Source: a virus
Lineage: Duplodnaviria; Caudoviricetes
IMG/VR virus record: IMGVR_UViG_3300029787_000057
Location: 1-56,332 of that record
Reading direction: 5' to 3' (one strand)
Length of the DNA stretch: 56,332 bases
Notes under the pieces: generated by a model
Seen by the model: only the letters and a program-made list of their open reading frames with translations
Databases searched by the model: none
What the model was told of the DNA's origin: nothing
Made by a program: the position numbers and the translations under genes
Shown: piece by piece, positions 5,602-26,396 of the stretch
Layout of the letters: each line of letters starts with the position of its first letter
How positions within the stretch are numbered: position 1 is the stretch's first letter

Positions 5602-5843
5602 TGAAGAGAAGGAAGAGAACAAACATCTTAAAGTTTAATAGACCAAGAACCATCAAAGAGGTAGAGGCTTTATGGTTTGTTGATTACATAGAAAGGGATT
5701 GGGATCCTTTTGAGAGTTCTTACTGGATCTATCTCAAAGAGGGATTCAGATTAAAAACACTTGAAACTATTTGTATTCACGAGGAAACCCTACGAGAAGC
5801 CATTGAGATGCTAGACGATGTATATGAGGGGGAGTGGGCATGA
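5598..5843 (+). CDS. Hypothetical early protein
   Basis: Coupled ORF, GGAGG RBS. Confidence 0.7.
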   Translation: MMKRRKRTNILKFNRPRTIKEVEALWFVDYIERDWDPFESSYWIYLKEGFRLKTLETICIHEETLREAIEMLDDVYEGEWA

Positions 5844-11934: not shown

Positions 11935-12274
11935 CTAGAATCTCCGCTCTAGGATTCTCTTTATCAAGACCATGATAAATATGCTTCTCTTTAATTTGGC
12001 GATCATTCTTATACGCTACCCCTTCCAGTAGATCCATGATCAGGCTTTCGTCTAGATCAGGTCTTCTGGTTGCGTAGTAGATAGTTGCTGTTAGTCTTAC
12101 ATCCCCCTCGATGAGTTCTTCTCTTTGAGGGCATTGGGCATCAAATGCTTTCTTGTAATCCAGAGCTTTCTTGGATTTCACAAACCTTGGTTTGCCACCG
12201 AAAGCCACTAACCTTCTACTGTTTGCTTTACTAGCTGGCTCTCCATATACTGTTATTTCGTAAGAGTTTGACAT
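11909..12274 (-). CDS. rusA: RusA-family Holliday junction resolvase
   Basis: GEPASKAN, RRPDLD, DLLEG..YKNDRQI, PRAEI motifs. Confidence 0.9.
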   Translation of the reverse strand: MSNSYEITVYGEPASKANSRRLVAFGGKPRFVKSKKALDYKKAFDAQCPQREELIEGDVRLTATIYYATRRPDLDESLIMDLLEGVAYKNDRQIKEKHIYHGLDKENPRAEILVESIACSP

Positions 12275-12296
12275 GATATGTTGGTTACTATACGAT
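12268..12296 (+). promoter_or_regulatory. Strong sigma70 promoter for the recombination operon
   Basis: TTGACA-17-TACGAT; lies within an inverted TTTGACA...TGTCAAA pair (12267-12303). Confidence 0.75.
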
Positions 12297-12315
12297 TGTC
12301 AAATAACTGGAGAAC

Positions 12316-12702
12316 GTGATGAGTAAGATTGGTAACTATGTTATTGCAATGGAGGAGGAAGGCAACTTCTTCTACAACGAAAAGGAAAAACGATATGAGC
12401 GAAGGCGTACTGAAAAGAAACGTAGATCACCCCGTCAGGGCGAAGATGCAACGTCTACCCCAGATACCATTCTCACAGATGAAATACCGAGACTGTTGGG
12501 AACTGGAAGTGGAGGAGGGTCAGTTTACGAGCAGGATCGCAGCAGTAAGGTCTTCCTACAAAAGATGGAGAGATGCAAACGAAGAGGACGAAAGGGAGTT
12601 CTCAATCGGAAAGAGCAACGATCAAGAAAACACTATCGCCGTATACTGTTACTCGGACAAGAGCCAAGAATCAGAAAGCTCTCAATCAACAGGCGTAAGT
12701 AA
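12316..12702 (+). CDS. Hypothetical basic protein (overlaps 12395-12778 in another frame)
   Basis: GGAGAAC RBS; stop coupled to the next ATG (TAATG). Confidence 0.5.
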   Translation: MMSKIGNYVIAMEEEGNFFYNEKEKRYERRRTEKKRRSPRQGEDATSTPDTILTDEIPRLLGTGSGGGSVYEQDRSSKVFLQKMERCKRRGRKGVLNRKEQRSRKHYRRILLLGQEPRIRKLSINRRK

Positions 12703-12778
12703 TGAAGCTGACGAACAAGTTCAACTTACCGGCACCGATAGTCGCGGCGTTATCGGAGAACAACTACACCAAGGGTGA
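12395..12778 (+). CDS. Hypothetical, probably small DNA-binding protein
   Basis: RNV..P...PFSQM...D.W...AVRS...RW pattern resembles small phage DNA-binding proteins; AAGGA RBS. Confidence 0.6.
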   Translation: MSEGVLKRNVDHPVRAKMQRLPQIPFSQMKYRDCWELEVEEGQFTSRIAAVRSSYKRWRDANEEDEREFSIGKSNDQENTIAVYCYSDKSQESESSQSTGVSNEADEQVQLTGTDSRGVIGEQLHQG

Positions 12779-13577
12779 GTCTCACCGATCAGTAACAACT
12801 CTGATTGATTCCCCACGAGTCAGGATTCTCAGGGAGCAATACGAAGATCAGATAGAGGAAGATGTATCTGAGATGATGTGGTCTGTGCTTGGCACTGCTA
12901 CCCACAACATCTTTGAGAACCACGCAGAGGGTGAATATGTTTCTGAAGAGCGACTCTTCGTAAAGAAAGATGGCTGGATTATATCGGGTGCCATTGATTT
13001 ACAGGACGAGAACGGGCCATCAGATTACAAAGTCACTAGCGTTTGGTCTGTCATCTTTGACAAGAAGGAATGGCACAACCAACTAAACGCATACGCTTGG
13101 TTGATGCGCCACGCAAAAGGTAGACCATCTAAAAGACTACGGATCATAGCGATACTCAGGGATTGGAAGCGCAGGGACGCAGAGACTAAAGACGATTATC
13201 CAGAGTCTCCGATCATGATCGTAGACATCCCCATGTGGACTGAGCAGGAGCAAGATGAATACATGGAGGAGCGCATCAGGATTCATCAGGAAGCAGAGTT
13301 ACGCCAGCTATCTGGAGAGCCTTTGCCCCCATGCAGTGATCATGAGAGATGGAAGAAGGAAGACTCCTATGCAGTTCGCAAGAAGACAAACAAAAGAGCA
13401 CTTAGAGTTTTTAGCTGCATGGATGATGCTAACGATTTTGTTGAGGCGAACAGTTTAGAAAAGGATCATGTTGTAGATCTACGTCAAGGCGTGGCTACTC
13501 GCTGCGATCAGAACTGGTGCCGTGTAGCTGAGTGGTGTGATCAATATCAATCAGAACTTGGAGTAAGCCATGTCTAA
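12702..13577 (+). CDS. Cas4-like PD-(D/E)xK exonuclease (recombination)
   Basis: GTATH, E.RL, GAIDL, DYK, QLNAY motifs plus C-terminal RC...C.V..WC cysteines. Confidence 0.88.
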   Translation: MKLTNKFNLPAPIVAALSENNYTKGESHRSVTTLIDSPRVRILREQYEDQIEEDVSEMMWSVLGTATHNIFENHAEGEYVSEERLFVKKDGWIISGAIDLQDENGPSDYKVTSVWSVIFDKKEWHNQLNAYAWLMRHAKGRPSKRLRIIAILRDWKRRDAETKDDYPESPIMIVDIPMWTEQEQDEYMEERIRIHQEAELRQLSGEPLPPCSDHERWKKEDSYAVRKKTNKRALRVFSCMDDANDFVEANSLEKDHVVDLRQGVATRCDQNWCRVAEWCDQYQSELGVSHV

Positions 13578-14439
13578 TGGACGTTTAGAGTTATTGCCAA
13601 GACAAACCAGTGGGGGATTTGTTTTTCATAACCCACCAACTATTAAGCTTGGCGCAACCACGCGAGAACAGTTAGAGCAAGCTTTAAGTAAAGAATTAGA
13701 TGAGGAGATGAAGAGGTTAGAAAAGATGGCTCTGGCTAATAAATTCAATCCCTCACAAAGTCACAAGGGAGAAACCTCTAACGAATTAGAAAGAAGAGCA
13801 TGGCAACATGAAAATATTTCGTATGACGAACACAGCGGGAGATGGATGGGATGCGGTAACACCGATTTAGACGAGTTCTTTGCACATTGCCATACAGCCC
13901 GTGAACATAGCTGTGATCGCAAGCTAGATGAAATATGCAGCTTGCTTAAAGATATTAAAAAGCGTATGGAACAGCCAGTGGTCTACAAAGATCGCGTGAT
14001 CGTTAAAAGATCGCCATACGAACCGAGGCCAGAATCTTTAGCTAAGTCTAAACGGATCAGTATCGGATCAGTTCTCAGGCCGTGTATTTATTTCTTGTAC
14101 GACGAAGACAAGATCATCTACATCGGACAATCCATCACGCCATACAGCAGAATAGCCGCACACAACAAGGATAAAAACTTTAGCTCTGTCAGGCTTTTTG
14201 CTTGCAGGAAAGACCGTCTGGATTATTGGGAAAGGATTCTCATCAAGAGGTATACGCCGCAACTAAATAAGGCACATAACAACGGTAAGCCAGCCAGAAT
14301 GAAAACCCCCAAGAAACAAAGATATGTTCACGGTGATCGGCAAGCGCAAAGACAAGTAGACCCTTTGAGGTTTGGTTTATCTAATCATGCGTCAATAAGT
14401 TTTCCTGCTCCGTCACCAAATACAGTCAAGGCTTTATAA
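13570..14439 (+). CDS. Protein with C-terminal GIY-YIG nuclease domain
   Basis: CIYFL...IIYIGQS....RI..H ... E..LI..Y.P.LN. Confidence 0.75.
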   Translation: MSNGRLELLPRQTSGGFVFHNPPTIKLGATTREQLEQALSKELDEEMKRLEKMALANKFNPSQSHKGETSNELERRAWQHENISYDEHSGRWMGCGNTDLDEFFAHCHTAREHSCDRKLDEICSLLKDIKKRMEQPVVYKDRVIVKRSPYEPRPESLAKSKRISIGSVLRPCIYFLYDEDKIIYIGQSITPYSRIAAHNKDKNFSSVRLFACRKDRLDYWERILIKRYTPQLNKAHNNGKPARMKTPKKQRYVHGDRQAQRQVDPLRFGLSNHASISFPAPSPNTVKAL

Positions 14440-14491
14440 CGTGCATATTGAATTCAGTTTAATTTACGACACAGAAACGGAGGAGGTTTCT

Positions 14492-14614
14492 ATGATGATT
14501 CCTACGGGAGATCTGGAAAATGACAGAGAAAAAATTGTAGCAGCCATATATGGGCTAAGAGATTTCTGTGATTTTTTCTTGGCAGGGACTGGGGATGAAG
14601 ATGCTAAACACTGA
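14492..14614 (+). CDS. Small hypothetical protein (40 aa, not in ORF track)
   Basis: GGAGGAGG RBS; MMIPTGDLENDREKIVAAIYGLRDFCDFF... Confidence 0.6.
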   Translation: MMIPTGDLENDREKIVAAIYGLRDFCDFFLAGTGDEDAKH

Positions 14615-14888
14615 TAAGAAGTTATATGAAAAGATGGTAGCGATTTGGTCTATAACAAAGATACCTATGCTTAACGGCGAGATCGTATCAGGAGAAGTCA
14701 GGTTCTCTTGGGCCAAAGGCCCGATAGTTAACCTAACTATGGAGCTATTCGAGAAGCTTGAGCCTATTGAAATAGTGCAACATTTGGAAAAAAAGATGGA
14801 TGAAAAATATGGAATCAATGGAAAGCGTTTCCGATCTGATTTCAGTGGGTACTTTACGCACCCATTCTCCTCTCAACGAACTAACTGA
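14595..14888 (+). CDS. Hypothetical protein
   Basis: ORF in operon orientation. Confidence 0.65.
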   Translation: MKMLNTDKKLYEKMVAIWSITKIPMLNGEIVSGEVRFSWAKGPIVNLTMELFEKLEPIEIVQHLEKKMDEKYGINGKRFRSDFSGYFTHPFSSQRTN

Positions 14889-14896
14889 GGAAACTT

Positions 14897-15646
14897 ATGG
14901 ATACAACAAAACTAATTGAAAATCTGATCGCAGCGCAGAAGGAGATCGAGAACGCCAACAGAACGGCGGTCAATGATTTCTTCAAGAGCAGAACAAAGAA
15001 GGATGGAAGCCCATACGCCACGCTAGAGGATGTCATAGAGGCTGTGAAGGATAAACTGCTAAAGCATGGCATATTGTACCAGCAGATCTCTGAGTCAGTA
15101 GATGGCGGCGTGTGCATTGAGACAGTCTTCTACGGACACGGAGCAGAACTTTCTACAGGCAAAATGTTTGTGCCAGCCGATAAACAAACCCCTCAAGGAT
15201 ACGGCAGTGCGTTGACATATGCTCGTCGTTACTCACTCAGTCTGGCTTGTGGTATCGGAGCAGATGATGACGATGGCAACAAGGCGACTCAGGCTGTTAA
15301 AGAGAATCCAGAAAGCGTTGCTAAAGACAAGGCACCGAAGGCTCCTGCTAAGAAAAAGTCTAGTGAAGACACTGGACTCACGTTGGCATCAGATAGCAGT
15401 AAGCCACAAGTAGTGGAAGCTGGAGACTACTGGTTGCCAAGGAATGAGGGAGATGCAAAGAAATTTGTAGAGAAGTGCAAAGAGATTATGTCTATGCACG
15501 ATGACATGGACAAGTGGTCTGGATATTACAGAGCTAACGCTGGGAGGATTGATGTATTGAAGGACAACTATCCAGATTTATACGAGGAGATTGGAGCAGC
15601 TTTCACTGCACAGAAGATGAAAATACAAGGAGAAGAAAATGCCTAA
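14897..15646 (+). CDS. erf: ERF-family single-strand annealing protein
   Basis: N.FF.S...YATLED; Q.YGSALTYARRYSL...GI..DDDDG signature. Confidence 0.93.
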   Translation: MDTTKLIENLIAAQKEIENANRTAVNDFFKSRTKKDGSPYATLEDVIEAVKDKLLKHGILYQQISESVDGGVCIETVFYGHGAELSTGKMFVPADKQTPQGYGSALTYARRYSLSLACGIGADDDDGNKATQAVKENPESVAKDKAPKAPAKKKSSEDTGLTLASDSSKPQVVEAGDYWLPRNEGDAKKFVEKCKEIMSMHDDMDKWSGYYRANAGRIDVLKDNYPDLYEEIGAAFTAQKMKIQGEENA

Positions 15647-15956
15647 TTATGATTTAAAAAAAGAGTCAAAGGGAAACCTATGGCCTAACAATGATCGGTC
15701 AGGAAAGATGCCCCACTACAGGGGCCATGTGACTGTGACTAAGGAACAGGCAAGGCACATCATGTCTCACATGAAGAATGGGGCAGACGAGGTGAAGATC
15801 ACCATAGCTGCTTGGGATAACACGGGCGATGATGGCAGTAGCTGGATGGGACTTAAAACAGAAACCCTGCCACCAGAAAATAGTGATGCGCCACCGCCTC
15901 CACCTCCTCCACCACCGCCACCTCAAGATGACTTTGAGGATGACATTCCGTTCTGA
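15639..15956 (+). CDS. ssb: Single-stranded DNA-binding protein (phage type)
   Basis: P.YRG.V, AAW, acidic C-terminal DDFEDDIPF tail; adjacent to erf. Confidence 0.75.
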   Translation: MPNYDLKKESKGNLWPNNDRSGKMPHYRGHVTVTKEQARHIMSHMKNGADEVKITIAAWDNTGDDGSSWMGLKTETLPPENSDAPPPPPPPPPPPQDDFEDDIPF

Positions 15957-16381
15957 TGGAGATCAGATTAGATTTTGATAAAAGCAGTGGATGTCAGATC
16001 GTTAACATCCTCTGCTTGAGTCATCCATCAAGAGCGGGAGAGCTAGAGCATCTTATGAAAGATGAGACTGGCGTGACGGTCAAGATAAGCAAAAGAAAGA
16101 AAGACCGATCAAGATCTCAAGAGAACTACTACCGTAAATGGAGCAGGGAGTTTGGAAAGTTCTGTGGACTGGCACCAGATGAAATACATGACGAGCTTTT
16201 GTGTATGACGTTTGGCAGTGACGAGTTCGTAACTAAATTTGGAACGACAAGAAGAAGGCCACACCAGAGAAGCTCAGACTGTACAACATCAACGTATGCT
16301 GATTTGATTGATACTCTTATTAGAATCAGCGCAGAGATGGGCTTTAAGGTGCCACCACCACATGAACAAGATAACTATTGA
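15956..16381 (+). CDS. NinB/Orf-like recombination protein
   Basis: RSRSQ.NYY.W, H, SS..T...Y..LID.....A.MG motifs. Confidence 0.7.
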   Translation: MEIRLDFDKSSGCQIVNILCLSHPSRAGELEHLMKDETGVTVKISKRKKDRSRSQENYYRKWSREFGKFCGLAPDEIHDELLCMTFGSDEFVTKFGTTRRRPHQRSSDCTTSTYADLIDTLIRISAEMGFKVPPPHEQDNY

Positions 16382-16502
16382 ATTAGATCTGGATAATCCA
16401 GAGATCACTAATTTAGCTTTGAGTGCCATTGAAACTCTGAAGTTGATCATACAACTCGCAGAGAAGGCCAGAGAAGATGAAGAAGAAGATATTCAAGTCT
16501 AA
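16362..16502 (+). CDS. Small hypothetical protein
   Basis: MNKITIELDL... fills the gap between neighbours. Confidence 0.55.
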   Translation: MNKITIELDLDNPEITNLALSAIETLKLIIQLAEKAREDEEEDIQV

Positions 16503-16791
16503 GAAGCACTTACAAGAAGTATCTGAAATGTATTGTTGTATAACAGACTTCTCTTGTGGGGGTGACGTTCAGGCACACCACTTGCTCAAACCTTGGACTG
16601 GAGGTAGGGGTATGGGCATGAGAGCCTCTGACGAGAACGTGATACCGCTATGCCAGCATCATCACGCTGTACTTCATGATCAGGTAGGCAATGAGTTTAA
16701 GTTCTTTGTTAAGTATGGAAGGAAAGAAACATTCGGTCAGGAACTTGCGAGGGATTTGTATGAGCAGTTTGAAAGCAGGAATGGATCGTAA
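16477..16791 (+). CDS. HNH-like Zn-binding nuclease (DUF968-like)
   Basis: K.HL..V...CC, AHHL, GMG.RA.D...IPLC..HH..LH. Confidence 0.8.
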   Translation: MKKKIFKSKKHLQEVSEMYCCITDFSCGGDVQAHHLLKPWTGGRGMGMRASDENVIPLCQHHHAVLHDQVGNEFKFFVKYGRKETFGQELARDLYEQFESRNGS

Positions 16792-17320
16792 AGAGCATTA
16801 CGAAATGCGGATCGGCGGGTCTTCTCTATCGGAAAAGATGATCGCCACTTGGATGCTACTCAACAACAAAGAGAACTGTGTGAAGGTATTTAACAAAACC
16901 ATAACGCCAGACTTTGAATCTCGTATGGATCATGTTGATTCAGGTGACTTGCTTGTCAACGGAAGGAAGATAGAGATCAAGCACTCATCCAGATCGTTTC
17001 AGTATGGACACTGGCCTTTTGATAAGTTCTTCATTTGCAACAAGAATAGTTTTGATCGGGCATATCCAGAGCCATCGTTTTACTTTGTGATAAACAAAGA
17101 GATGACTGTGGCAGCGGTAGTTAACGTATCAACCACCAGAGATCGCTGGACAGTGGAAAAGGTAAGCGATAGAGATAGGCCGGGAGGAGACAACTATCTA
17201 GCATATTGTCTCCCATTAGACGATATTATTTGGCAGAATATTGGGAATGATACGCTATTCCCAAAGTATCAGATTACGTTCTCAGAAAGCATGGAGATAG
17301 TTTCATGTGGAACGGTTTAG
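16781..17320 (+). CDS. PD-(D/E)xK restriction-endonuclease-fold protein
   Basis: D.GDLLVNGRKIEIK catalytic motif. Confidence 0.7.
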   Translation: MDRKEHYEMRIGGSSLSEKMIATWMLLNNKENCVKVFNKTITPDFESRMDHVDSGDLLVNGRKIEIKHSSRSFQYGHWPFDKFFICNKNSFDRAYPEPSFYFVINKEMTVAAVVNVSTTRDRWTVEKVSDRDRPGGDNYLAYCLPLDDIIWQNIGNDTLFPKYQITFSESMEIVSCGTV

Positions 17321-17384
17321 ACCAAGGGGATTTCATCACCCCCTTCCAGCACGTTCCCCGTCCGTGTGGTCTAGCAGACGGGGG
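17318..17384 (+). ncRNA. Three-way-junction pseudoknot RNA, copy 1
   Basis: P1 TAGACC(A)/(T)GGTCTA, P2 AGGGG/CCCCT, P3 CACG/CGTG; loop CCCCGTC pairs with downstream GACGGGG. Confidence 0.7.
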
Positions 17385-17408
17385 CTATTTTATGTAGGAT
17401 TTTGAATA

Positions 17409-17473
17409 GGTCAGGGGAGCACATTACTCCGCTTCCTTAGAACTACTCCCCCAGTAGTAGGGCCGAAACTGGG
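17409..17473 (+). ncRNA. Three-way-junction pseudoknot RNA, copy 2
   Basis: P1 GGTC/GGCC, P2 AGGGGAGC/GCTTCCTT, P3 CTAC/GTAG; loop CCCAGT pairs with ACTGGG. Confidence 0.65.
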
Positions 17474-17480
17474 AAGAATT

Positions 17481-17548
17481 TAGGTCAGGCGTTCCCCTTA
17501 CAAGAACGTGACACATCTGAAGCCGCCCAGATCTGGCCTAGAGGCGGC
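17481..17548 (+). ncRNA. Three-way-junction pseudoknot RNA, copy 3
   Basis: P1 TAGGTCAG/CTGGCCTA, P2 GCGTTC/GAACGT, P3 ATCTG/CAGAT; loop GCCGCC pairs with GGCGGC. Confidence 0.72.
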
Positions 17549-17551
17549 ATT

Positions 17552-20500
17552 CTACTTATCTTGTCCTACGATGTAACTGAATCTTTTATTGAAGCGATCA
17601 TAAGCTTGCTTCTTTAACTGCAATAATTTTTCTTCTTCATCCATATATCTCTTAGCGTTATCAGGGCTTTTCGCTGACAAAGATCTTAATTGTGTAAGCC
17701 TCTCGTTTATCGCTCTAATACGTTTGTCGGTTGCTTTCATAGCAGATTCCATCGAGAGATATGGCTGATTCTCTTTGATGTAAGCCGTTCGTTCTGCACC
17801 TCTTAACACGTTTCTAGTTTGATTTGCTTTTCGTTTTATATCAGCGGATCGCTCGTAAAAGTCCTGCTGGCTAGTCCTGTGATCTACTTCACCAAGCACC
17901 CTTCTAAGAAACGGTATTTGATTTACTGATATGTTTTCATCATTAGCAAACTTATCAAAAGCCGTCTTTGTTCTAAGGGCAGTGGCACCCATACCACCCA
18001 ATGAGAAGTTAAACAGATGCTGTAGCTTGTCAGGAGATATATCCATCAAGCCTCCGGCTCCCGGCTCACTCTCGTTGCCGCCTCCTAATCCATTTATAAA
18101 CTTAGCTAGGTTCTTGAAGTATTCGTTTGTGGAAGCTTTTGATAACTGTGATTCAGGTAGATCTGTGCCAAAAGGGAAGTTCTCTGTATAAACAGGTGAG
18201 CCGAAAAAGTTTTCGTTTACCGCTATCTCAACAAAAGGATCCAGAGCTGTCGGGCTACCCGTCTTTAATAGCTGTGTAGAGAAGTCTTGAGATGATGCAA
18301 AACCAATCGGGTTGAAAGACCCCATTAATGTTTTAGTTACCATCGTTGCTGCTTTCTCTGGAGATTTTAATCCAGACAACGACTCAAAAATGTTTTGTCC
18401 CATCACATGAAATGCGTTGTAGCCGTATGGCAAAGGTATTTTGAAGTAATCCTTACCATTAGGTTGCATGATTATGATATTCCTTTCCTTCTCAAACTCA
18501 GGAATATTCATGTAAAAGGACTTGCCGTTTTCGTCTTCGTCACTCATTGCTTCTGCTAATGCAGCAGCCAAAGCACCGGCACCTACCATAGACCCAACTA
18601 TTTTCTGCTTGAGTCTTGAAGCCCGTGGATCAAATACATTTAACCCTCTCGCAAAGTTTAATGTGCCTTGAACAGAAGCATTGAAGAATAGATACAGGCT
18701 GTTTAGTGTAGGGCCGAGATCACCAGATCTATTAAAGTTTACAGTTAGGTTCTTAGCTAGTGTGGCGGCTTTGGCAATAGCCTCATCACGAGGTATGCCT
18801 TTCTCTATGAACTGATCTCTTGCTGCTTTGAAAGAAGCAAAACGAACACCATTCTCTACAGCCGAATTTCCGTCTTCAACATAATCTAAAATTGTATCTT
18901 TAGCCTGAACAACATTACCTTTGAATGTTCCTTTACTCATCTCCATTAAGCTTTCTATGGTCTTCAGTTCCTCTTGTGGAGGTCTGCTATGAAACCAATC
19001 TGCTTTTGCACCGGCACTTATGTATTCTTTGTAATCTTGTTGCTCTTGTTCTGTTTGATTGGCACTGTTTCTAAAGCCTTTGTAAAAAGCTTTGATACTT
19101 GGGAACGTATCTTTGACTACCTGTTTGACTATCTTGGTATCTTCAGCTTTACCCGCTGGCATAGATTGCTCACCAAGTATGTTATAAACCGCTGTCTGTA
19201 TGTCCCTAGCAAAGTTACCCACAACGAACTCAGGGTTAAAAGATGTGTTTACCATCGAGAAGAATCTGTTAACCGTACCCAATGTTTGTATTATCTTGCT
19301 GGTGTTATCGGCATCTAAATTCAACAAAGCCTTTTTCAGATCAGGATCTTTGATTTCTATGAAAGCTTGCTCTCCGTTTATCTTTACACCAAAAAGATCT
19401 GGATTTGTTCTACCAACTTCTTTTGCGCTTTTTGCGGTTAGCTTTGTTCTTCTTACATAATTCTTTCTTTCTTCTTTAGATGTGCCTTCAGGTATGTTTG
19501 CTACCTTTTGACCAGTTGGTATATAGGTATAAGAACTTTCAACTATGCGATCAAACTTAGGATTTTTAGCATCAACAACTTCCCAAACATCTGTGTTGGG
19601 ATTTTCTTTTGCTAAGTCGTACAGCCTCTGACCTATGTTGACATTCTTAGCTGCTCTAGCTATTTGTCTATTTCTGTCTGCTATTAGTGTCGCCAGTGGA
19701 GATTCTGCCGCAGACTTTCTTCCCAAAGCTCTCTTTCCTTCTGCACCTTTGGTGCCAAGGTTGCCACTTGTCCCGGCAGTTGCAGAGTACAACTCAGCAA
19801 AGTCATCCTCGACTGCCTTGCCTTTCAGCGGGACGTAATACTTAAATAGACCAGACAACATATCGTGATCTTCTTGCGAGTGCAGCCCAGACTCTAATTG
19901 TAGATCCAGTGTGCCTTGTATGATCGCATCTGTTTTTTTAGCAATCTTTTCTAATTCTTTTGCTCTCTTGTTACCGCCAGTCCACTCGCCTTTACTATCA
20001 TTCCAGTCGAGATTGAACTCTTCTTTCATTCTTTTTTTGACATAATCATTTGTCAAACGCACTTCTTGATCACCAACCAATATTGAACCAGCACCACCAT
20101 CAGCAAAGTTTTTTGGATCAACTTCAGAAATCCTTTTATTTCTCTCTACTGCATGACGCAAGGCTAGATAGTCATCAAACTCTTTTCTTGCCTCTTGTGT
20201 GCTTTTTTCAGTATTGATCGCAACCAGATCTTCAACAATCGGATCAATCTCTTCTCTTTGAAACACCCTTGAGGTTTCTCCAACCTTACCGGCTATAGAC
20301 TCCTCACCAAGATAAGCTGACTTGAGTGCCGGTATAGGAGGCATACCAAGTTTTTCTCTGCCAGCATTTATTGCTTCCTCTATCTTTTTTAATCCGATCA
20401 GCTTGTCAGCAAACTGAAAGATAAACCTGTCACCCCTAGTAGTAGTAGGTGTTTCAAAGGATGCAAACTCATCTGGAGGTAAGTTTCTTTCTGCTCGATC

Positions 20501-23272
20501 AACAGTCTCTGCCTCAATCACCTCTTCTACAGTGGCATTACCAACCTCGCTGGGAGGTAAAGATTGTTTTACTTGATCAACACTTCTTTTTGCTTGTCCT
20601 GTTTTGACACTAGCTTCCTGTTGACCCTTGGTTTCTATTTGTTTTGCTCTTACCTCTACAGGGAATCCAAATGTTTCATCCAGCACAACAGGGGGCTGAG
20701 TAACTTCTGGCTCTGCTTCTAAGGTAGGCTCTGGGGCTGGTGCTTGCTCTGGTCTAGCAGGGGATGGTGCCAGTACCTTGCCTCGCTTGTTTATAACTCC
20801 CTGCTCTACAAGCTCCTCTCTCAAGCTCAAAACTTTTTTGTTTGTCAGAGAGTCTTGATCTAGCAATCCAGAAGCTTGGCGAATGGTGTTTATACCGCTA
20901 TCGCCACTATCGTTTATGGCACTCTTCGCAGCGTTAAACTGTTGTCTTGTAAAAGGTTTTATCCGAAAGAAGTTTTTCGGTAACTTGGTAGGTTTATCAA
21001 ACTTGGGTAAGGCTCTGAGCTTGTAATAAAAAAGCTCTCTTTCTGGAGTGGTCATCTTGCCTATATCGCTCTTGCCGACAAACGACTTAGCTATAGCCTT
21101 AACTTCTCTTGAGTTTACTTTGGCATCTATGTTCTTGTTGTTTAGGAGATTCTGTATCTCTGTAGCAGCACCACCACCCTCAAGATCAGCTATACCTCTA
21201 GGAACTGGACCTGTGCCAATCGCCTGATTTTGTTTGTTAGCAAAGTTGGTTGCATCTCTTTGGGACGTAAACTTAACTAAAGAATCTGGGTTGATACCTT
21301 CTCTTTCGGCTTGCGCTTTTTCTCTCTCGTTTCTTGGGCGAAAGCTAGTGGTCTTACCATCAGTTGATATTACCGCTGGCTCACCTTTTTCATTTCTAGT
21401 TGACTGATAGCTTTCTGATTCTGTTCTAGCCTTAACCTGAATGCCAATCAAATCCTGCATCTGATCAGGATTTAGAATTTTAGCAGCTTCTTCAAACGTG
21501 AAAGAGTCAGACTCAGGCAGACCATCTCTGTATCTGTCTAGGTTCAACTGCATAGAGGCGGGGAGATCAGATCTATTTATTGATTTGCGCCCTGTGCGCT
21601 CTATGATCTCTTCAAAGGTAACTGTTTCTGGGAAGGAGACAATCTTTCCATCTTTGTCTTCAACGAGGAATGTGGTTCCAGCGGCCTCATTTAGCGAGGC
21701 AGCGGTTACTGTGTTGGCTTCAGGCTCTAATACTCGCTTATGTACTCTGTATAGCTTGCCAGCTTGCTCTGTATCGTAGGTTTCTGGAGAAATATCCATA
21801 GCGTCAGTGGCTTGTTGCATGACGTTTTTAGATATGACTTTTTTGTTTAGACCATCTAAGAGTTTGACAGCATCTTCTTTCTTAACTGGCACACCGAATC
21901 TTTGATCTGTAGAGGTTTCAAAAACCTCAAACATAGCTTCTTCTTGACCAGTAGTAGGATCTACAGCAACAGATTCTCTTACATCAAACTTTGCGCTAGA
22001 TGGGAAGTAAGCACCCATGCTAGTTTCTATGATTGATGCGTAATCTTGCCCTCTTCTTGGGGGTATTCCGTCAGGACTTGCTTCAGCCCTTCTTCTTTCC
22101 CTTATCTCTGCTTCTCTTGCGGCTAAAGTCTGTGCATCAAATGTAGCCGTTTCTGCCTCAAGCCCAGCTTGACCAGCCTCTACAGCAGCTTGATTTAAAG
22201 CATCTACTGTTTGAGCTAATTCTTGTTGTATCTCAGCTTCTTCTCTAACAGTCTGCTCTGCTGTCTGCTGATCTTGCTCTTCTTGTTCAGCAAAATCTTG
22301 ATCTTTTGCTTTTTCAGAATCAACAGATGTTTGTCTTCTTCTTCCGGCAGCGGAGGTCAACACCAAATCAGCTAACGCACCAGTGGCACCACCAACAGTT
22401 AGATCGTCCATAAACGATCCACCGACAGGTAGGTTCTCGTTATATAAGCCCTGCTCTATCAGGTCTTGTGCAATCCCAGCACTAGCCTCTTGCACAGCCT
22501 CAGTTGATCCCGAAGCCAATGCGCTTTTTACTCTTCTTACCGCTTCCCTTTTAATATCGTCACTGGCTATGCGATCAAATCGTTTGAATAGATTTATAGG
22601 GAGTATTAACTCAGACAAGCCAACAGCCGCACCGCTGACTATTGCCTGATCTTCAGTCATATTATCTACATTTAAACCAGCATCTCTAGCTGCTTGTATT
22701 CTTTGTGCCTGATCACCAGCACCAGCACCAACAGCGAGTGCTCCAGCACCACCGTACTCTATGGCTTTCATAGTTTTGCCAGCAGTGCCAGCAACACGAG
22801 CAATGACTCCGGGCGTTAGGAACGTAGCTAGTGATCCAACTCCCTCACCAAGCTTTGTAGTCCAAGCGTCTTTGTACTTCTCATCAACACCCAGAAAGCT
22901 TTCGTTTAGTGATTTGCGGCCCTCTCTAGCAAGACGAACCAACTCATTCTCTTCGCCACTGTCTATGAGATTCTCAAGACCAACAAAGTTTGTAGTGGCA
23001 TCTGCTAACTCAGCGATACCTTCAGCAGAAGATAGAAAGCCAGAAGCAAAGCCCCTTGGGACTGCTTTCAAAAACTCACCAGTCTGCCCTATTATGCTGG
23101 TTTCTTCTTCAACTTCCTCTACAACAGGAACAGACATTGGGACGGGCTGAGGATCAAAATCCTCTGCTGTAGCCCACCCTGAATTTATTGATATTTCTTT
23201 TAATTCCTCATTTGAAATATCTTCTGGAACGTCAAATACGATCCTACCGTTAGGAAGCGTTACGTCTTGCAT
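17552..23272 (-). CDS. Large internal virion/ejection protein with C-terminal LPD38-like domain
   Basis: 1906 aa, last gene of the late operon; G/A-rich amphipathic N-region; NP.F...N..RD, VNF.R.G, FFNASVQG, KIPLPYG, N.NFFG.P motifs. Confidence 0.8.
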   Translation of the reverse strand: MQDVTLPNGRIVFDVPEDISNEELKEISINSGWATAEDFDPQPVPMSVPVVEEVEEETSIIGQTGEFLKAVPRGFASGFLSSAEGIAELADATTNFVGLENLIDSGEENELVRLAREGRKSLNESFLGVDEKYKDAWTTKLGEGVGSLATFLTPGVIARVAGTAGKTMKAIEYGGAGALAVGAGAGDQAQRIQAARDAGLNVDNMTEDQAIVSGAAVGLSELILPINLFKRFDRIASDDIKREAVRRVKSALASGSTEAVQEASAGIAQDLIEQGLYNENLPVGGSFMDDLTVGGATGALADLVLTSAAGRRRQTSVDSEKAKDQDFAEQEEQDQQTAEQTVREEAEIQQELAQTVDALNQAAVEAGQAGLEAETATFDAQTLAAREAEIRERRRAEASPDGIPPRRGQDYASIIETSMGAYFPSSAKFDVRESVAVDPTTGQEEAMFEVFETSTDQRFGVPVKKEDAVKLLDGLNKKVISKNVMQQATDAMDISPETYDTEQAGKLYRVHKRVLEPEANTVTAASLNEAAGTTFLVEDKDGKIVSFPETVTFEEIIERTGRKSINRSDLPASMQLNLDRYRDGLPESDSFTFEEAAKILNPDQMQDLIGIQVKARTESESYQSTRNEKGEPAVISTDGKTTSFRPRNEREKAQAEREGINPDSLVKFTSQRDATNFANKQNQAIGTGPVPRGIADLEGGGAATEIQNLLNNKNIDAKVNSREVKAIAKSFVGKSDIGKMTTPERELFYYKLRALPKFDKPTKLPKNFFRIKPFTRQQFNAAKSAINDSGDSGINTIRQASGLLDQDSLTNKKVLSLREELVEQGVINKRGKVLAPSPARPEQAPAPEPTLEAEPEVTQPPVVLDETFGFPVEVRAKQIETKGQQEASVKTGQAKRSVDQVKQSLPPSEVGNATVEEVIEAETVDRAERNLPPDEFASFETPTTTRGDRFIFQFADKLIGLKKIEEAINAGREKLGMPPIPALKSAYLGEESIAGKVGETSRVFQREEIDPIVEDLVAINTEKSTQEARKEFDDYLALRHAVERNKRISEVDPKNFADGGAGSILVGDQEVRLTNDYVKKRMKEEFNLDWNDSKGEWTGGNKRAKELEKIAKKTDAIIQGTLDLQLESGLHSQEDHDMLSGLFKYYVPLKGKAVEDDFAELYSATAGTSGNLGTKGAEGKRALGRKSAAESPLATLIADRNRQIARAAKNVNIGQRLYDLAKENPNTDVWEVVDAKNPKFDRIVESSYTYIPTGQKVANIPEGTSKEERKNYVRRTKLTAKSAKEVGRTNPDLFGVKINGEQAFIEIKDPDLKKALLNLDADNTSKIIQTLGTVNRFFSMVNTSFNPEFVVGNFARDIQTAVYNILGEQSMPAGKAEDTKIVKQVVKDTFPSIKAFYKGFRNSANQTEQEQQDYKEYISAGAKADWFHSRPPQEELKTIESLMEMSKGTFKGNVVQAKDTILDYVEDGNSAVENGVRFASFKAARDQFIEKGIPRDEAIAKAATLAKNLTVNFNRSGDLGPTLNSLYLFFNASVQGTLNFARGLNVFDPRASRLKQKIVGSMVGAGALAAALAEAMSDEDENGKSFYMNIPEFEKERNIIIMQPNGKDYFKIPLPYGYNAFHVMGQNIFESLSGLKSPEKAATMVTKTLMGSFNPIGFASSQDFSTQLLKTGSPTALDPFVEIAVNENFFGSPVYTENFPFGTDLPESQLSKASTNEYFKNLAKFINGLGGGNESEPGAGGLMDISPDKLQHLFNFSLGGMGATALRTKTAFDKFANDENISVNQIPFLRRVLGEVDHRTSQQDFYERSADIKRKANQTRNVLRGAERTAYIKENQPYLSMESAMKATDKRIRAINERLTQLRSLSAKSPDNAKRYMDEEEKLLQLKKQAYDRFNKRFSYIVGQDK

Positions 23273-24845: not shown

Positions 24846-26396
24846 TTACGTTCCCAGTGCTTTATACAGACCCACACCACCAATACCGGCACCAAGCAAC
24901 GACTGAGCCTCTGTAGGCCCAACACCGAATGAAGCCATAGTGCTTCCGGGTGTAACGGGCAAACCTTGCAACATATTGCTGAAGAATCCGATCTGCTCTC
25001 TTGGGAATGCCTGTTGACGCAAGAAGTCTTGATAACCAATATCCAAACCTCTTTGAGCCAACTGTCTTTGTATTTCCCCAGCAGCTTGTAGATTCTGCAA
25101 TCTATCAAAGCCCATCGCTTGCTCTTGACCGCCTAGAGAGCTTAATAACCTTGCAGCATCTAAAGCTTGACCTCTTGTTGCCTGATCAGCCTGTAGTCCA
25201 GCCAACCCAAGCTGTGCTCGATCTTGAGCTGCTTGAACATTGAACTCTCTGGATCTCATCCTCGCTTCGTTATCTGCTTGTCTTGCTCTTTCTTCAATCT
25301 CTTGAGCAGAAAGACCCAACTGTGCCGCTTGTTGCCTAGCAGCTTCACTAGCCTGAAAAGCAGTTCTATCTTCTTGTTGTTGTGCCAGCCTAAGCTGCTC
25401 GTTTTGTTGAAATTGTTGCTGCGTAAAGTCTTCTTGCGCTCGTTGAGCCGCATCTTCTTGCTGTTGTGCGGTAAGTCCAAGTTGAGCCGCTTGCTGTCTG
25501 GCACCTTCTCCAGCTTGAAATGCTGACTGTCTGAGCTGCTCTGCTTGCTGCAAGGCTCTTTGTTGTTCAGTGCCAGTTTGTAAGCCAAGTTGCGCTTGCT
25601 GTAGTCTAGCCGCTCTGTCTGTCTCAAACGCTCTCTGCGCCTGATCAAACGCTGCCTGACCGCCTCTAGATTGTATATCAGCTAGTTGCTGACCTAAATT
25701 TCTTTCTCTTTCTGCTTGCAGAATACCTTCTCGATATCCACCAAGACCGCCAGCCATTGCAGCTTGTTGACTTATCTCTGCTGCCTGAGTGTCTGAAGCT
25801 CTTTTAGCCTCTCTTTTTTCAATATCTGTAACTAACTGCTGGTATGGATTCATGTAGCTTTGGATCGTTGCAGCGTCTGATACAGTTCCTGCTTGAAATC
25901 CGGGGCCAAAGTCAGCTTGACCTGTATATTGAGTTTGAATATCTCCTGCCGTGTAGCCCGGATCAAACTGACCAGCCTGATAACCAACACCTCGCTGACC
26001 GGCTTGGAATCCCTGACCTAGATCACCAGCAGCATAGTCGGCAGTTATATCCCCAGCCTGATAACCAGAAAACTGAGCTTGAGGAGTAAAGCCTTGAGCT
26101 ATGTTTAGCCCTAGATTTGATGGTTGAAAGCCTATTTGGGTAGCTATGTCACTGGCAGATCGGATCTGTTGTGGAGCACCAGCACCAGCCATCTCTGCTA
26201 TGCCCGTCATAGCTGTTTGTTCAAAAGGATTGAACTCAGCTAGTCTTTGTCCGGGGAACGCCTCATAAGGTCTTGTGCTCTCGTAAACGGTACGACCAAG
26301 CATCTCTTCATAGAACGGCTTTGCATACTCAGGAAGATTAGTCTGAGTAACTGTACTCTCTTGGGGGCCACTAGGTGCTTTGCTACCTTTACCCAT
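24846..26396 (-). CDS. Internal virion/DNA pilot-like protein, Q-rich
   Basis: MGKG start, YMNPY motif, Q/A repeats, Gly-rich C-terminus. Confidence 0.7.
   Translation of the reverse strand: MGKGSKAPSGPQESTVTQTNLPEYAKPFYEEMLGRTVYESTRPYEAFPGQRLAEFNPFEQTAMTGIAEMAGAGAPQQIRSASDIATQIGFQPSNLGLNIAQGFTPQAQFSGYQAGDITADYAAGDLGQGFQAGQRGVGYQAGQFDPGYTAGDIQTQYTGQADFGPGFQAGTVSDAATIQSYMNPYQQLVTDIEKREAKRASDTQAAEISQQAAMAGGLGGYREGILQAERERNLGQQLADIQSRGGQAAFDQAQRAFETDRAARLQQAQLGLQTGTEQQRALQQAEQLRQSAFQAGEGARQQAAQLGLTAQQQEDAAQRAQEDFTQQQFQQNEQLRLAQQQEDRTAFQASEAARQQAAQLGLSAQEIEERARQADNEARMRSREFNVQAAQDRAQLGLAGLQADQATRGQALDAARLLSSLGGQEQAMGFDRLQNLQAAGEIQRQLAQRGLDIGYQDFLRQQAFPREQIGFFSNMLQGLPVTPGSTMASFGVGPTEAQSLLGAGIGGVGLYKALGT

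What the first reader, a model, noticed from the sequence alone, without database searches (positions are those of the whole stretch)
17318..17548. Tandem array of three sequence-divergent three-way-junction pseudoknots (xrRNA-like topology) at a convergent junction
Seen: the ~230 bp between the PD-(D/E)xK nuclease gene and the last late gene is filled by three 65-68 nt units with one topology: P1 - P2 hairpin - 4-5 nt linker - P3 hairpin - P1' - 2-3 nt linker - a strand pairing with the P3 loop (CCCCGTC/GACGGGG; CCCAGT/ACTGGG; GCCGCC/GGCGGC). Primary sequences differ almost completely apart from TAG(G/A)(T/C)CA(G/A)G at the 5' end, so the copies covary against each other. G-U pairs indicate the + strand. 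Unit 1 starts on the nuclease stop codon. Established: a 3WJ with an L3 pseudoknot, often in tandem, is the architecture of flavivirus class 1 exoribonuclease-resistant RNAs; tandem pseudoknots are also how type III TA antitoxins and their phage mimics are built. Inference: an RNA family I cannot name, acting as a nuclease roadblock that yields stable sRNAs, as a decoy for a host defence protein, or as an RNA partner of the adjacent nuclease.
Basis: partly seen in the sequence, partly recalled or inferred. Interest (0 to 1): 0.88.

Follow-up and report, generated by a model that had tools for sequence, protein, structure and literature searches.

The report
Tandem knotted RNA units in marine phages
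The gap between two converging phage genes holds three copies of a folded, pseudoknotted RNA module from an uncatalogued family found once per genome in many uncultured marine phages, and its job is still untested.

Summary
Window 17318-17548 (+) contains three 65-68 nt units, each with P1 enclosing hairpins P2 and P3, plus a 3' tail that pairs with the P3 loop.

Unit 1 belongs to a family I found on 53 other contigs. A covariance model gave 60 hits, 48 of them distinct. P1, P2 and P3 covary: 90.8% of cells are paired, against 46% or less when partners are slid. The loop-tail pseudoknot covaries between sequence classes, with 6 of 7 pairs changed on both sides.

Unit 2 has class-mates in two other phage lineages. 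Unit 3 has no independent homolog. It rests on its fold score and on being the second-best model hit in the window.

The family matches nothing in Rfam 15, in cultured phages or, by one strict pattern, in 185,579 species genomes. It sits at one locus per genome (5 of 5 records), on the sense strand of early genes that otherwise differ.

Function is inferred, not shown. My best guess (about 0.38) is a cis-acting RNA roadblock or boundary element. A subset carries a U-tract and may terminate transcription. The idea of an RNA partner for the neighbouring nuclease is disfavoured. A 2023 catalogue of IMG/VR candidate RNAs may already list it; its supplements were closed.

The parts
16691..17320 (+). 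Last gene of the + strand early/recombination operon (209-aa ORF; relatives start at residue 24 or 31). Its TAG stop (17318-17320) lies inside P1 of unit 1. It is a neighbour, not shown to be a partner.
   Evidence: no family match; weak PD-(D/E)xK lead; structure model unusable (pLDDT 42).
17318..17384 (+). Unit 1 (class I variant). P1 17318-17324/17367-17373; P2 17325-17329/17340-17344 with loop ATTTCATCAC; J2/3 TCCAG 17345-17349; P3 17350-17353/17363-17366; L3 17354-17362; linker 17374-17376; tail 17377-17384 pairing with 17355-17362.
   Evidence: pairs verified; model R1 hit at 73.5 bits, E 2.3e-16 and 3.6e-17 with filters off; homologs and covariation.
17385..17406 (+). U-rich spacer after unit 1 (reads CTATTTTATGTAGGATTTTGAA). 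A possible U-tract that would make unit 1 a terminator.
   Evidence: scored T-rich by the 5-of-8 rule, but no run of five T. Inference only.
17407..17473 (+). Unit 2 (class II). TAG at 17407; P1 17409-17412/17461-17464; P2 17416-17419/17427-17430; J2/3 17433-17442; P3 17443-17447/17456-17460; L3 17448-17455; GAA 17465-17467; tail 17468-17473 pairing with 17450-17455.
   Evidence: Class-mates in L054/L074 and L072/L077 have a different P3 (GCCCT/AGGGT versus CTACT/AGTAG) and a different long P2. Not detected by the class I model at E up to 10.
17481..17548 (+). Unit 3 (class III, close to class I). P1 17481-17488/17533-17540; P2 17489-17494/17504-17509; J2/3 17510-17514; P3 17515-17519/17528-17532; L3 17520-17527; linker 17541-17542; tail 17543-17548 pairing with 17522-17527.
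   Evidence: Top fold score together with unit 1. Second-best hit of model R1 in the whole window with filters off (13.1 bits, E 0.14). The only other copy is the near-identical contig behind L002/L141.
17552..23272 (-). Converging last gene of the late operon (1906 aa, LPD38 domain). Its stop codon lies 4 nt from the end of unit 3.
   Evidence: PF18857, E 7.8e-43.

Best explanation
Each unit is a self-contained, co-transcriptionally folding RNA knot. A closing helix P1 holds two hairpins. The 3' tail then latches onto the P3 loop, so that one continuous strand (P3', P1', tail) takes part in three helices.

I think it acts in cis on early transcripts as a mechanical boundary element. It would stop RNases from running along or into the message: 3'-to-5' exonucleases working on the upstream message, and possibly 5'-end-dependent enzymes working on the downstream one. 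Where a U-tract follows the tail, it would also stop RNA polymerase. Tandem copies would add redundancy and would leave stable pieces of about 65 nt.

Shown: the fold, the strand, the family, its single locus per genome, and the U-tract enrichment. Inferred: every step about nucleases and termination.
For: 1. The conserved core is the knot itself. P1, P3 and the loop-tail helix are kept by compensatory change. P2 varies from absent to 9 bp, and the P2-P3 junction is not conserved between units. This fits a structural job better than a ligand or protein site.

2. Landmarks around the latch recur across classes I, II and IV: a G...U flank of P3, (C)GAA before the tail, and AC after it.

3. The unit always lies on the sense strand of an upstream gene and starts 0-15 nt after its stop. 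By the longest open frame, the sense strand wins upstream in 21 of 30 loci, and the nine exceptions are narrow (92 versus 104, 116 versus 123). It wins downstream in 21 of 30, and the opposite strand wins clearly only in the window (231 versus 89) and in L056 (142 versus 92). Protection or formation of the upstream 3' end is the one role I see that fits all the contexts examined.

4. TTTTT lies within 10 nt after the tail in 11 of 49 class I entries (3 of the 49 are overlapping duplicates), against 1.1% of 20,000 random positions. T-rich sequence follows 16 of 49 against 9%.

5. Nested folding of each window unit puts the loop-tail helix as the dominant hairpin right before the U-rich spacer.

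6. The segment closed by the latch is 12-15 nt in the units I read. A review gives 15-16 nt for xrRNA rings (passages of PMC8374639).
Against: No RNA ends or decay products were seen. The only RNA runs gave three 151-nt contigs at depth 2 in an oligo-dT library, which may be DNA carry-over.

There is only one locus per genome. A generic stabiliser or terminator would be expected at many gene ends.

38 of 49 class I entries lack a T5 run.

The loop-tail sequence is nearly invariant within class I: 4 of 7 pairs never vary. A plain roadblock would not need that, and it could mean sequence-specific recognition.

The first unit of many arrays also keeps a P2 loop (TCATCAC) and a CCAG junction that this model does not explain.

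The hosts and their RNases are unknown.
Confidence: 0.38

Rival explanations
1. The units are trans-acting small RNAs or decoys. Each would be an aptamer-like RNA that binds and titrates a host or phage protein, for example a defence nuclease or an RNA-binding regulator. The different loop-tail classes would be different specificities.
For: One cluster per genome with variable copy number and discrete classes, much like a phage tRNA or sRNA cluster. The element is shared by phages whose early genes are otherwise unrelated. The L3/tail sequence and the subclass P2 loop are strongly conserved. A U-tract after some units would give an sRNA-like 3' end.
Against: No partner gene co-occurs; flanking genes vary. 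There is no room for a separate promoter in most loci. P2, the most exposed arm, is the least conserved and can be missing. The one strict pattern scan of bacterial genomes found no host look-alike, which limits mimicry by homology.
Confidence: 0.25
2. The element controls transcription by acting on RNA polymerase. It would be a regulated terminator/attenuator or a put/nut-like antitermination signal that gates the genes downstream of the early block.
For: In G003 the array separates upstream early genes from a helicase and replication block. It often precedes an HTH regulator gene. U-tracts are embedded inside arrays. It is a single site on the early transcript.
Against: In the window and in L056 nothing co-directional lies downstream. 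HK022 putRNA is two stem-loops with no closing helix or pseudoknot (passages of PMC9378689). No alternative, mutually exclusive fold is needed or conserved.
Confidence: 0.12
3. The units are degenerate or non-canonical tRNA-like genes, or substrates of tRNA-processing enzymes, that punctuate the operon.
For: P1 is 7-8 bp. Tandem units have AU-rich spacers. There is one cluster per genome. P3 and L3 begin G-TTC like a T arm. The last point is my own reading from recalled tRNA features.
Against: ARAGORN finds no tRNA or tmRNA in the window and no Rfam tRNA or tmRNA model matches. The fold has three arms, not four. The 3' end is buried in the pseudoknot, with no CCA.
Confidence: 0.06
4. The unit is a ligand-sensing riboswitch or a self-cleaving ribozyme.
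For: Conserved loop and junction nucleotides in the first unit of many arrays (TCATCAC, CCAG). Small size with a pseudoknot.
Against: Those nucleotides are absent from later units and from window units 2 and 3. There is no constant downstream gene, and none at all in the window. No Rfam riboswitch or ribozyme matches.
Confidence: 0.05
5. The RNA is a cofactor or substrate of the adjacent 209-aa putative nuclease.
For: Direct abutment in the window and in L002-L006.
Against: Most family members follow other genes. G001-G003 carry the RNA but have no homolog of this protein. Only 3 relatives of the protein exist among 5.8 billion sequences.
Confidence: 0.03
6. It is a DNA-level feature, such as operator or iteron repeats or a recombination hotspot at module boundaries, with no RNA role.
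For: It sits at mosaic boundaries. Many contigs end near it (positions), and DNA depth spikes over unit 1 in run X2 (175 against about 2 in the neighbouring bins). An HTH gene is often downstream.
Against: Compensatory changes keep three to four helices, and many pairs are G-U only on the sense strand, for example UG in 41 of 47 rows at one pseudoknot pair.
Confidence: 0.03

Closest known systems
Class 1 flaviviral exoribonuclease-resistant RNA (xrRNA)
   Same: A three-way junction, with a hairpin loop latched by a downstream strand (the second pseudoknot of xrRNAs). Often in tandem with non-identical copies. The latch closes a short continuous strand: 12-15 nt here, against the 15-16 nt ring given in passages of PMC8374639 and PMC13556198.
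   Different: This is a dsDNA phage of bacteria, not an RNA virus of eukaryotes. No Rfam xrRNA model matches. I could not find the defining first pseudoknot between the 5' end and the junction, nor the base triple. Xrn1 does not exist in bacteria. Resistance has not been tested.
Coremin motif (xrRNA-C) of plant and fungal RNA viruses
   Same: A small RNA element thought to be pseudoknotted that blocks an exonuclease and scanning ribosomes, and that occurs in intergenic regions (abstract and passages of PMC10520033). It shares a short CGAA-containing stretch with the P1'-tail joint.
   Different: Coremin is defined as a 4-bp hairpin with a YGAD tetraloop, an 8-10 nt spacer and a second hairpin. 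Here CGAA is not a loop closed by a 4-bp stem, and the fold is a 65-nt three-way junction.
Type III toxin-antitoxin antitoxin RNAs (ToxI and relatives) and phage pseudo-antitoxins
   Same: Tandem pseudoknotted RNA units, with copy number varying between close relatives (own knowledge; 1, 2 and 3 units in L003, L004 and the window).
   Different: Known antitoxin repeats are 34-45 nt and nearly identical (recalled). Here the units are 65-68 nt with 20 of 69 columns invariant. No downstream toxin gene is present, and the neighbours have no ToxN/AbiQ-type match in PADLOC.
Intrinsic (Rho-independent) terminators
   Same: A GC-rich helix followed directly by a U-tract in a subset: 11 of 49 class I entries have T5.
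   Different: The helix is one arm of a pseudoknot and spans 12-15 nt that are themselves paired. The consensus scan sees no terminator here, and most units lack a U-tract.
HK022 putRNA (cis-acting antiterminator)
   Same: About 70 nt, phage-specific, on early transcripts, and it works as folded RNA (passages of PMC9378689).
   Different: put is two stem-loops in a V shape, with no closing helix and no pseudoknot. The window array has nothing downstream to antiterminate.
Unnamed candidate structured RNAs from IMG/VR ('DNAVirus_X', PMC10690425)
   Same: That study mined the same collection's intergenic regions and reports 8,495 novel candidates with a median length of 65 nt, including terminator-like and tRNA-like ones (passages). 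This family may be among them.
   Different: The main text I read describes no three-way-junction pseudoknot array. The list and alignments are in supplements that were closed, so I could not check.

Membership tests
Class 1 flaviviral xrRNA | Three-way junction of P1, P2 and P3 | tested here: met
   P1, P2 and P3 are kept by covariation (90.8% of cells paired, against 46% or less when slid).
Class 1 flaviviral xrRNA | Latching pseudoknot between a hairpin loop and a downstream strand | tested here: met
   6 of 7 loop-tail pairs change on both sides across classes, on a MAFFT alignment of 17 units that I chose. The class II and IV rows had been found by a scan that required such pairing.
Class 1 flaviviral xrRNA | Pseudoknot between the 5' end and the junction, with a 15-16 nt ring around the 5' end and a conserved base triple (PMC8374639) | tested here: inconclusive
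   By eye I found no conserved complementarity between the 5' flank (TTT) and the variable J2/3. 3D topology cannot be computed with these tools.
Class 1 flaviviral xrRNA | Match to the family's sequence/structure model | tested here: not met
   No Rfam family at gathering score in the window, none relevant at E up to 10 in 17200-17700, and none at E up to 1 in 8 other loci.
Class 1 flaviviral xrRNA | Stalls a 5'-3' exoribonuclease | not testable with these tools
   Needs an enzyme assay.
Coremin / xrRNA-C | 4-bp hairpin with a YGAD (or YGNNAD) loop, an 8-10 nt spacer, then a second hairpin | tested here: not met
   Definition from passages of PMC10520033. In the units CGAA joins P1' to the tail and is not closed by a 4-bp stem.
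Type III antitoxin RNA array | Near-identical tandem repeats of about 34-45 nt (recalled) | tested here: not met
   Units are 65-68 nt, and 20 of 69 columns are invariant.
Type III antitoxin RNA array | A cognate endoribonuclease toxin gene next to the repeats | tested here: not met
   No co-directional downstream gene. 7 upstream proteins have no ToxN/AbiQ-type PADLOC match.
Intrinsic terminator | GC-rich hairpin with a 3-8 nt loop followed directly by a U-tract | tested here: not met
   The consensus scan of 12000-18500 finds none in 17318-17548. A U-tract follows the pseudoknot arm in only 11 of 49 family entries.
tRNA / tmRNA | Cloverleaf or tmRNA model match | tested here: not met
   ARAGORN finds 0 genes in the window. 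No Rfam match.
HK022 putRNA | Two stem-loops in a V shape, about 70 nt, downstream of an early promoter | tested here: not met
   Architecture from passages of PMC9378689. Here there is a closing P1 plus a pseudoknot, and the array lies at the end of the operon.

The most novel reading that the evidence does not exclude
This is a bacterial-virus counterpart of xrRNAs: a ring- or knot-forming three-way-junction pseudoknot that mechanically blocks bacterial RNA-decay enzymes (3' exonucleases, RNase J, or 5'-end-scanning RNase E) and, with a U-tract, RNA polymerase. It would be kept as the one constant element of otherwise freely exchanged early regions in a group of abundant marine podoviruses.
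Probability: 0.3. Interest if true: 0.85.

Novelty: new variant of a known kind. Interest (0 to 1): 0.6.

Why it matters
If the fold is a nuclease or polymerase roadblock, the xrRNA principle would extend from eukaryotic RNA viruses to dsDNA phages. It would also provide a compact, modular, naturally diversified part (at least four loop-tail classes) for controlling RNA stability in bacteria.

Even without a known function, it is a well-supported new RNA family. It marks a unique point in the early transcripts of uncultured marine phages related (TerL 57% identical) to Pelagibacter phage HTVC027P. Among the four genomes compared, it is the only feature I found in the window's non-structural part (positions 1 to about 24.8 kb) that is shared with them.

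Tried and rejected
Thermodynamics. Nested folding gives no significant z-score, so it neither supports nor refutes a pseudoknotted fold.

Generic fold scanner. Without P2 it gave 50 hits in the window against 31-50 in 10 shuffles, and a run of three occurred in 1 of 10 shuffles. It is too permissive to prove unit 2. An earlier version missed units 2 and 3 because of a trimming bug.

Cross-class control. Own-tail pairing is 6-8 bp, but off-class values reach 7 when G-U is allowed. This is a weak control, and I rely instead.

RNAalifold on the MAFFT alignment proposed pairing the tail with the P2 3' strand. I rejected this. P2 covaries as a hairpin, and window unit 1 changes the tail in step with L3.

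HDV-like, hammerhead, twister, pistol, hatchet ribozymes and known riboswitches: no Rfam hit. The resemblances I considered came from recall only.

rRNA mimicry or antisense. Exact matches of 9 nt or more to E. coli 16S/23S/5S numbered 112 for the units against 68-89 for shuffled units. The units are related to each other, and no match was consistent across them. I dropped this idea.

Homologs of unit 3. The pattern scan gave 27 stretches. Only L141, the same contig as L002, is the element.

The junction in distant relatives of the 1906-aa protein (L116-L119, 23-24% identity) holds an integrase-like gene and no array.

Cultured phages. There was no DNA or protein match for the region. A 77-nt class I unit gave only 23-26 nt chance matches in 3 actinophages. 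HTVC027P was fetched but not searched with the model.

Bacterial genomes. One strict pattern gave 9 stretches in soil, actinobacterial and similar contigs, with no P1/P2 arms by eye.

RNA evidence. Run X19 (oligo-dT) gave 151-nt contigs at 17105-17255, 17250-17400 and 17534-17684 at depth about 2. X20 gave nothing over the array. No conclusion can be drawn.

Structure of the 209-aa protein: pLDDT 42, so I did not use it for a fold search.

Earlier notes of this scan. No look-alike stretch was found. Similar 'knotted RNA' readings exist on other DNA. They served as leads for the rRNA and coremin checks, not as support.

Literature. Searches listed no paper describing this element or any phage xrRNA.
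Full report
WHAT IS THERE

The window is a complete 56,332-bp IMG/VR virus record. Between ORF 16691-17320 (+) and the converging 1906-aa LPD38 gene 17552-23272 (-) lie 231 nt with no ORF of 40 aa or more.

Coordinates are listed under parts.
- Unit 1 (17318-17384) and unit 3 (17481-17548) have 7-8 bp P1 helices.
- Unit 2 (17409-17473) has only a 4-bp P1, a P2 with a G-G mismatch next to its 4-bp core, and a 10-nt P2-P3 linker.
- Four G-U pairs make the fold specific to the + strand.
- The three units share 20 of 69 aligned columns, mostly the 5' TAGRYCARG.

IS IT MORE THAN CHANCE?

From this one sequence, only weakly.
- Nested folding cannot model the pseudoknot. It gives z = -0.92 for the stretch and -0.5 to -1.5 per unit.
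- A generic scanner for P1/P2/P3 plus loop-tail pairing is permissive: 34 hits against 18-29 in shuffles.
- However, units 1 and 3 are the two best hits on both strands (25 each, next best 22). A score of 25 or more occurred in 3 of 12 shuffles and never in adjacent pairs.

The real evidence comes from relatives.

THE FAMILY

The 209-aa neighbour has only three relatives among 5.8 billion proteins. Their loci L003-L006 (66-70% identical protein) carry a diverged copy of unit 1 right on the stop codon, with compensatory changes in P1 and P3.

Two pattern scans of IMG/VR extended the family.
- The first gave 24 stretches, 15 of which carry the whole element.
- The second gave 90 stretches. In 73 distinct contexts, 34 have a fully complementary P3 and 39 are GC-rich chance hits.
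- In total, 55 loci on 53 contigs other than the window carry it.

A covariance model built from 13 sequences found 60 matches, 48 of them distinct, in 37 sources. On that model-fitted alignment:
- 90.8% of cells pair, against 33-46% when partners are slid.
- 14 of 22 pairs change on both sides.
- P3 is paired in 100% of cells.

Many pairs are G-U on the sense strand only.

THE PSEUDOKNOT

Within class I the loop (TTCCCGTC) and the tail (GGCGGGA) hardly vary: 4 of 7 pairs never vary and 3 vary on one side only. The test therefore has to come from other classes.

Arrays in other phages contain units with the same landmarks but different loop/tail pairs. The landmarks are a 5' TTTAG, a G...T flank of P3, (C)GAA before the tail and AC after it. 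The loop/tail pairs are:
- CCCCAGTT/AACTGG in L054 and L072, the class of window unit 2.
- TGCCTGTG/CACAGG in L035 and L052.
- CCCCGCC/GGCGGG in L086.
- The window's TTCCCCGTC/GACGGGGG (unit 1) and AAGCCGCC/GGCGGC (unit 3).

I aligned 17 such units with MAFFT, without fitting to any structure. On that alignment the loop-tail helix keeps one register. It has 6 of 7 pairs with changes on both sides and 91.6% of cells paired. The structure as a whole has 95.1% of cells paired, against 51% or less when slid.

Caveat: I chose the rows, and the class II and IV rows had been found by a scan that demanded loop-tail pairing. The shared register relative to independent landmarks was not selected for.

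UNITS 2 AND 3

Unit 2 has class-mates in two other lineages, with a different P3 and a different long P2.

Unit 3 has no independent homolog. With filters off it is the second-best hit of the class I model in the whole window (13.1 bits, E 0.14). It differs from class I in the pseudoknot by one flipped pair and one U-G to C-G change.

CONTEXT

- One locus per genome in 5 of 5 larger records, and in the window.
- Arrays of 1 to 4 or more units, with copy number differing between close relatives.
- The units lie on the sense strand of the flanking genes. The open-frame measure favours that strand upstream in 21 of 30 loci and downstream in 21 of 30. The opposite strand wins clearly downstream only in the window and L056, which are convergent.
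- Flanking genes vary.
- G001-G003 share the window's structural genes (35-98% identity). They have no homolog of any window ORF below position 24,846, yet they keep the RNA.
- TerL is 57% identical to that of Pelagibacter phage HTVC027P.
- Nothing similar turned up in Rfam 15, in 50,697 cultured phage records or, by one strict pattern, in 185,579 species genomes.
- A run of five T follows the tail in 11 of 49 class I entries, against 1.1% of random positions.

HOW IT MAY WORK

The conserved part is the knot. P2 and the junction are free to vary or even vanish.

That pattern, the constant position right after an upstream gene, the two end-of-operon cases and the U-tract enrichment lead me to favour a cis-acting boundary element. 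It would block RNases and, in a subset, terminate transcription (confidence about 0.38).

Two things argue against this reading. There is only one locus per genome, and the loop-tail sequence is near-invariant. Both keep a trans-acting decoy or aptamer reading alive (0.25).

Other readings rank lower:
- A polymerase-directed control element fits G003 and the HTH contexts but not the window (0.12).
- tRNA-like, riboswitch/ribozyme, nuclease-partner and DNA-level readings are each contradicted by at least one test. See the rival explanations.

No RNA-level data were informative.

COMPARISON WITH WHAT IS KNOWN

The topology matches two of the defining features of class 1 flaviviral xrRNAs: the three-way junction and the latching pseudoknot. 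Tandem, non-identical copies also match (passages of PMC13556198 and PMC8374639).

The 5'-end pseudoknot, the ring and the base triple could not be shown. No model matches, and the enzyme context differs. So it works-like at best and is not a member.

It is not a coremin motif, not a type III antitoxin array, not a canonical terminator, not put and not a tRNA.

The 2023 IMG/VR catalogue of 8,495 candidate RNAs may already contain it without a name or function. I could not open its supplements.

This scan's earlier notes report similar xrRNA-like knots in other phages on other DNA. None shares sequence with this one.

VERDICT

This is a real, strand-specific, covarying RNA family with an xrRNA-like topology, new to Rfam. 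It is widespread in uncultured marine phages, and its function is untested.

Noticed in passing
window 12268-12302: Back-to-back sigma-70-like promoters: TTGACA-17-TACGAT on + and TTGACA-18-TATCAT on -, scoring 10 and 11 of 12. They sit at the divergence between the primase/helicase genes (-) and the recombination operon (+) that ends in the RNA array.
   Followed up: no
window 1-24800 versus G001-G003: Related phages share the structural module (TerL, portal and others at 35-98% identity) but no ORF from the window's first 24.8 kb. This is extreme early-region mosaicism in which the RNA array is the shared element.
   Followed up: partly
window 17242-17375 in DNA run X2: Summed contig depth is 175 over unit 1, against about 2 in the bins on either side. 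This suggests the class I unit sits on many co-occurring genomes in that seawater sample. Several contigs also break near it.
   Followed up: no
window 15768-16035: Depth spikes in RNA and DNA runs, with loose ends made of CCACC-type repeats. This is a low-complexity coding repeat that attracts unrelated contigs and is not evidence of expression.
   Followed up: no
window 5639, 12053 (+) and 26012 (-): The 9-mer TAGRYCARG occurs 11 times against 3.9 expected (0 of 100 shuffles reach 11). The site at 5639 (TAGACCAAG) showed no unit-like fold downstream by eye.
   Followed up: partly
L026 and L044 arrays (third unit): One unit type replaces P2 with a C-rich stretch and can form a 9-bp hairpin that would place the P1 5' strand in its loop. 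This is a variant topology that I did not resolve.
   Followed up: no
L004, L016, L061, L003 loci downstream of the array: A small HTH protein (78-101 aa, with a conserved ...DSQI.Q.L...ELD....YN motif) is the gene that most often follows the array. The window has no homolog.
   Followed up: partly
window 13570-14436 (+): The 289-aa early protein weakly matches the candidate defence family PDC-S14 in PADLOC (E 9e-07, residues 172-231).
   Followed up: no
class I first units, P2 loop and 3' strand: By eye, the stretch ATCAC followed by a C-rich/CCTCC-like run recalls the 3' end of 16S rRNA. My exact-match test against E. coli rRNAs was not above shuffled controls.
   Followed up: yes
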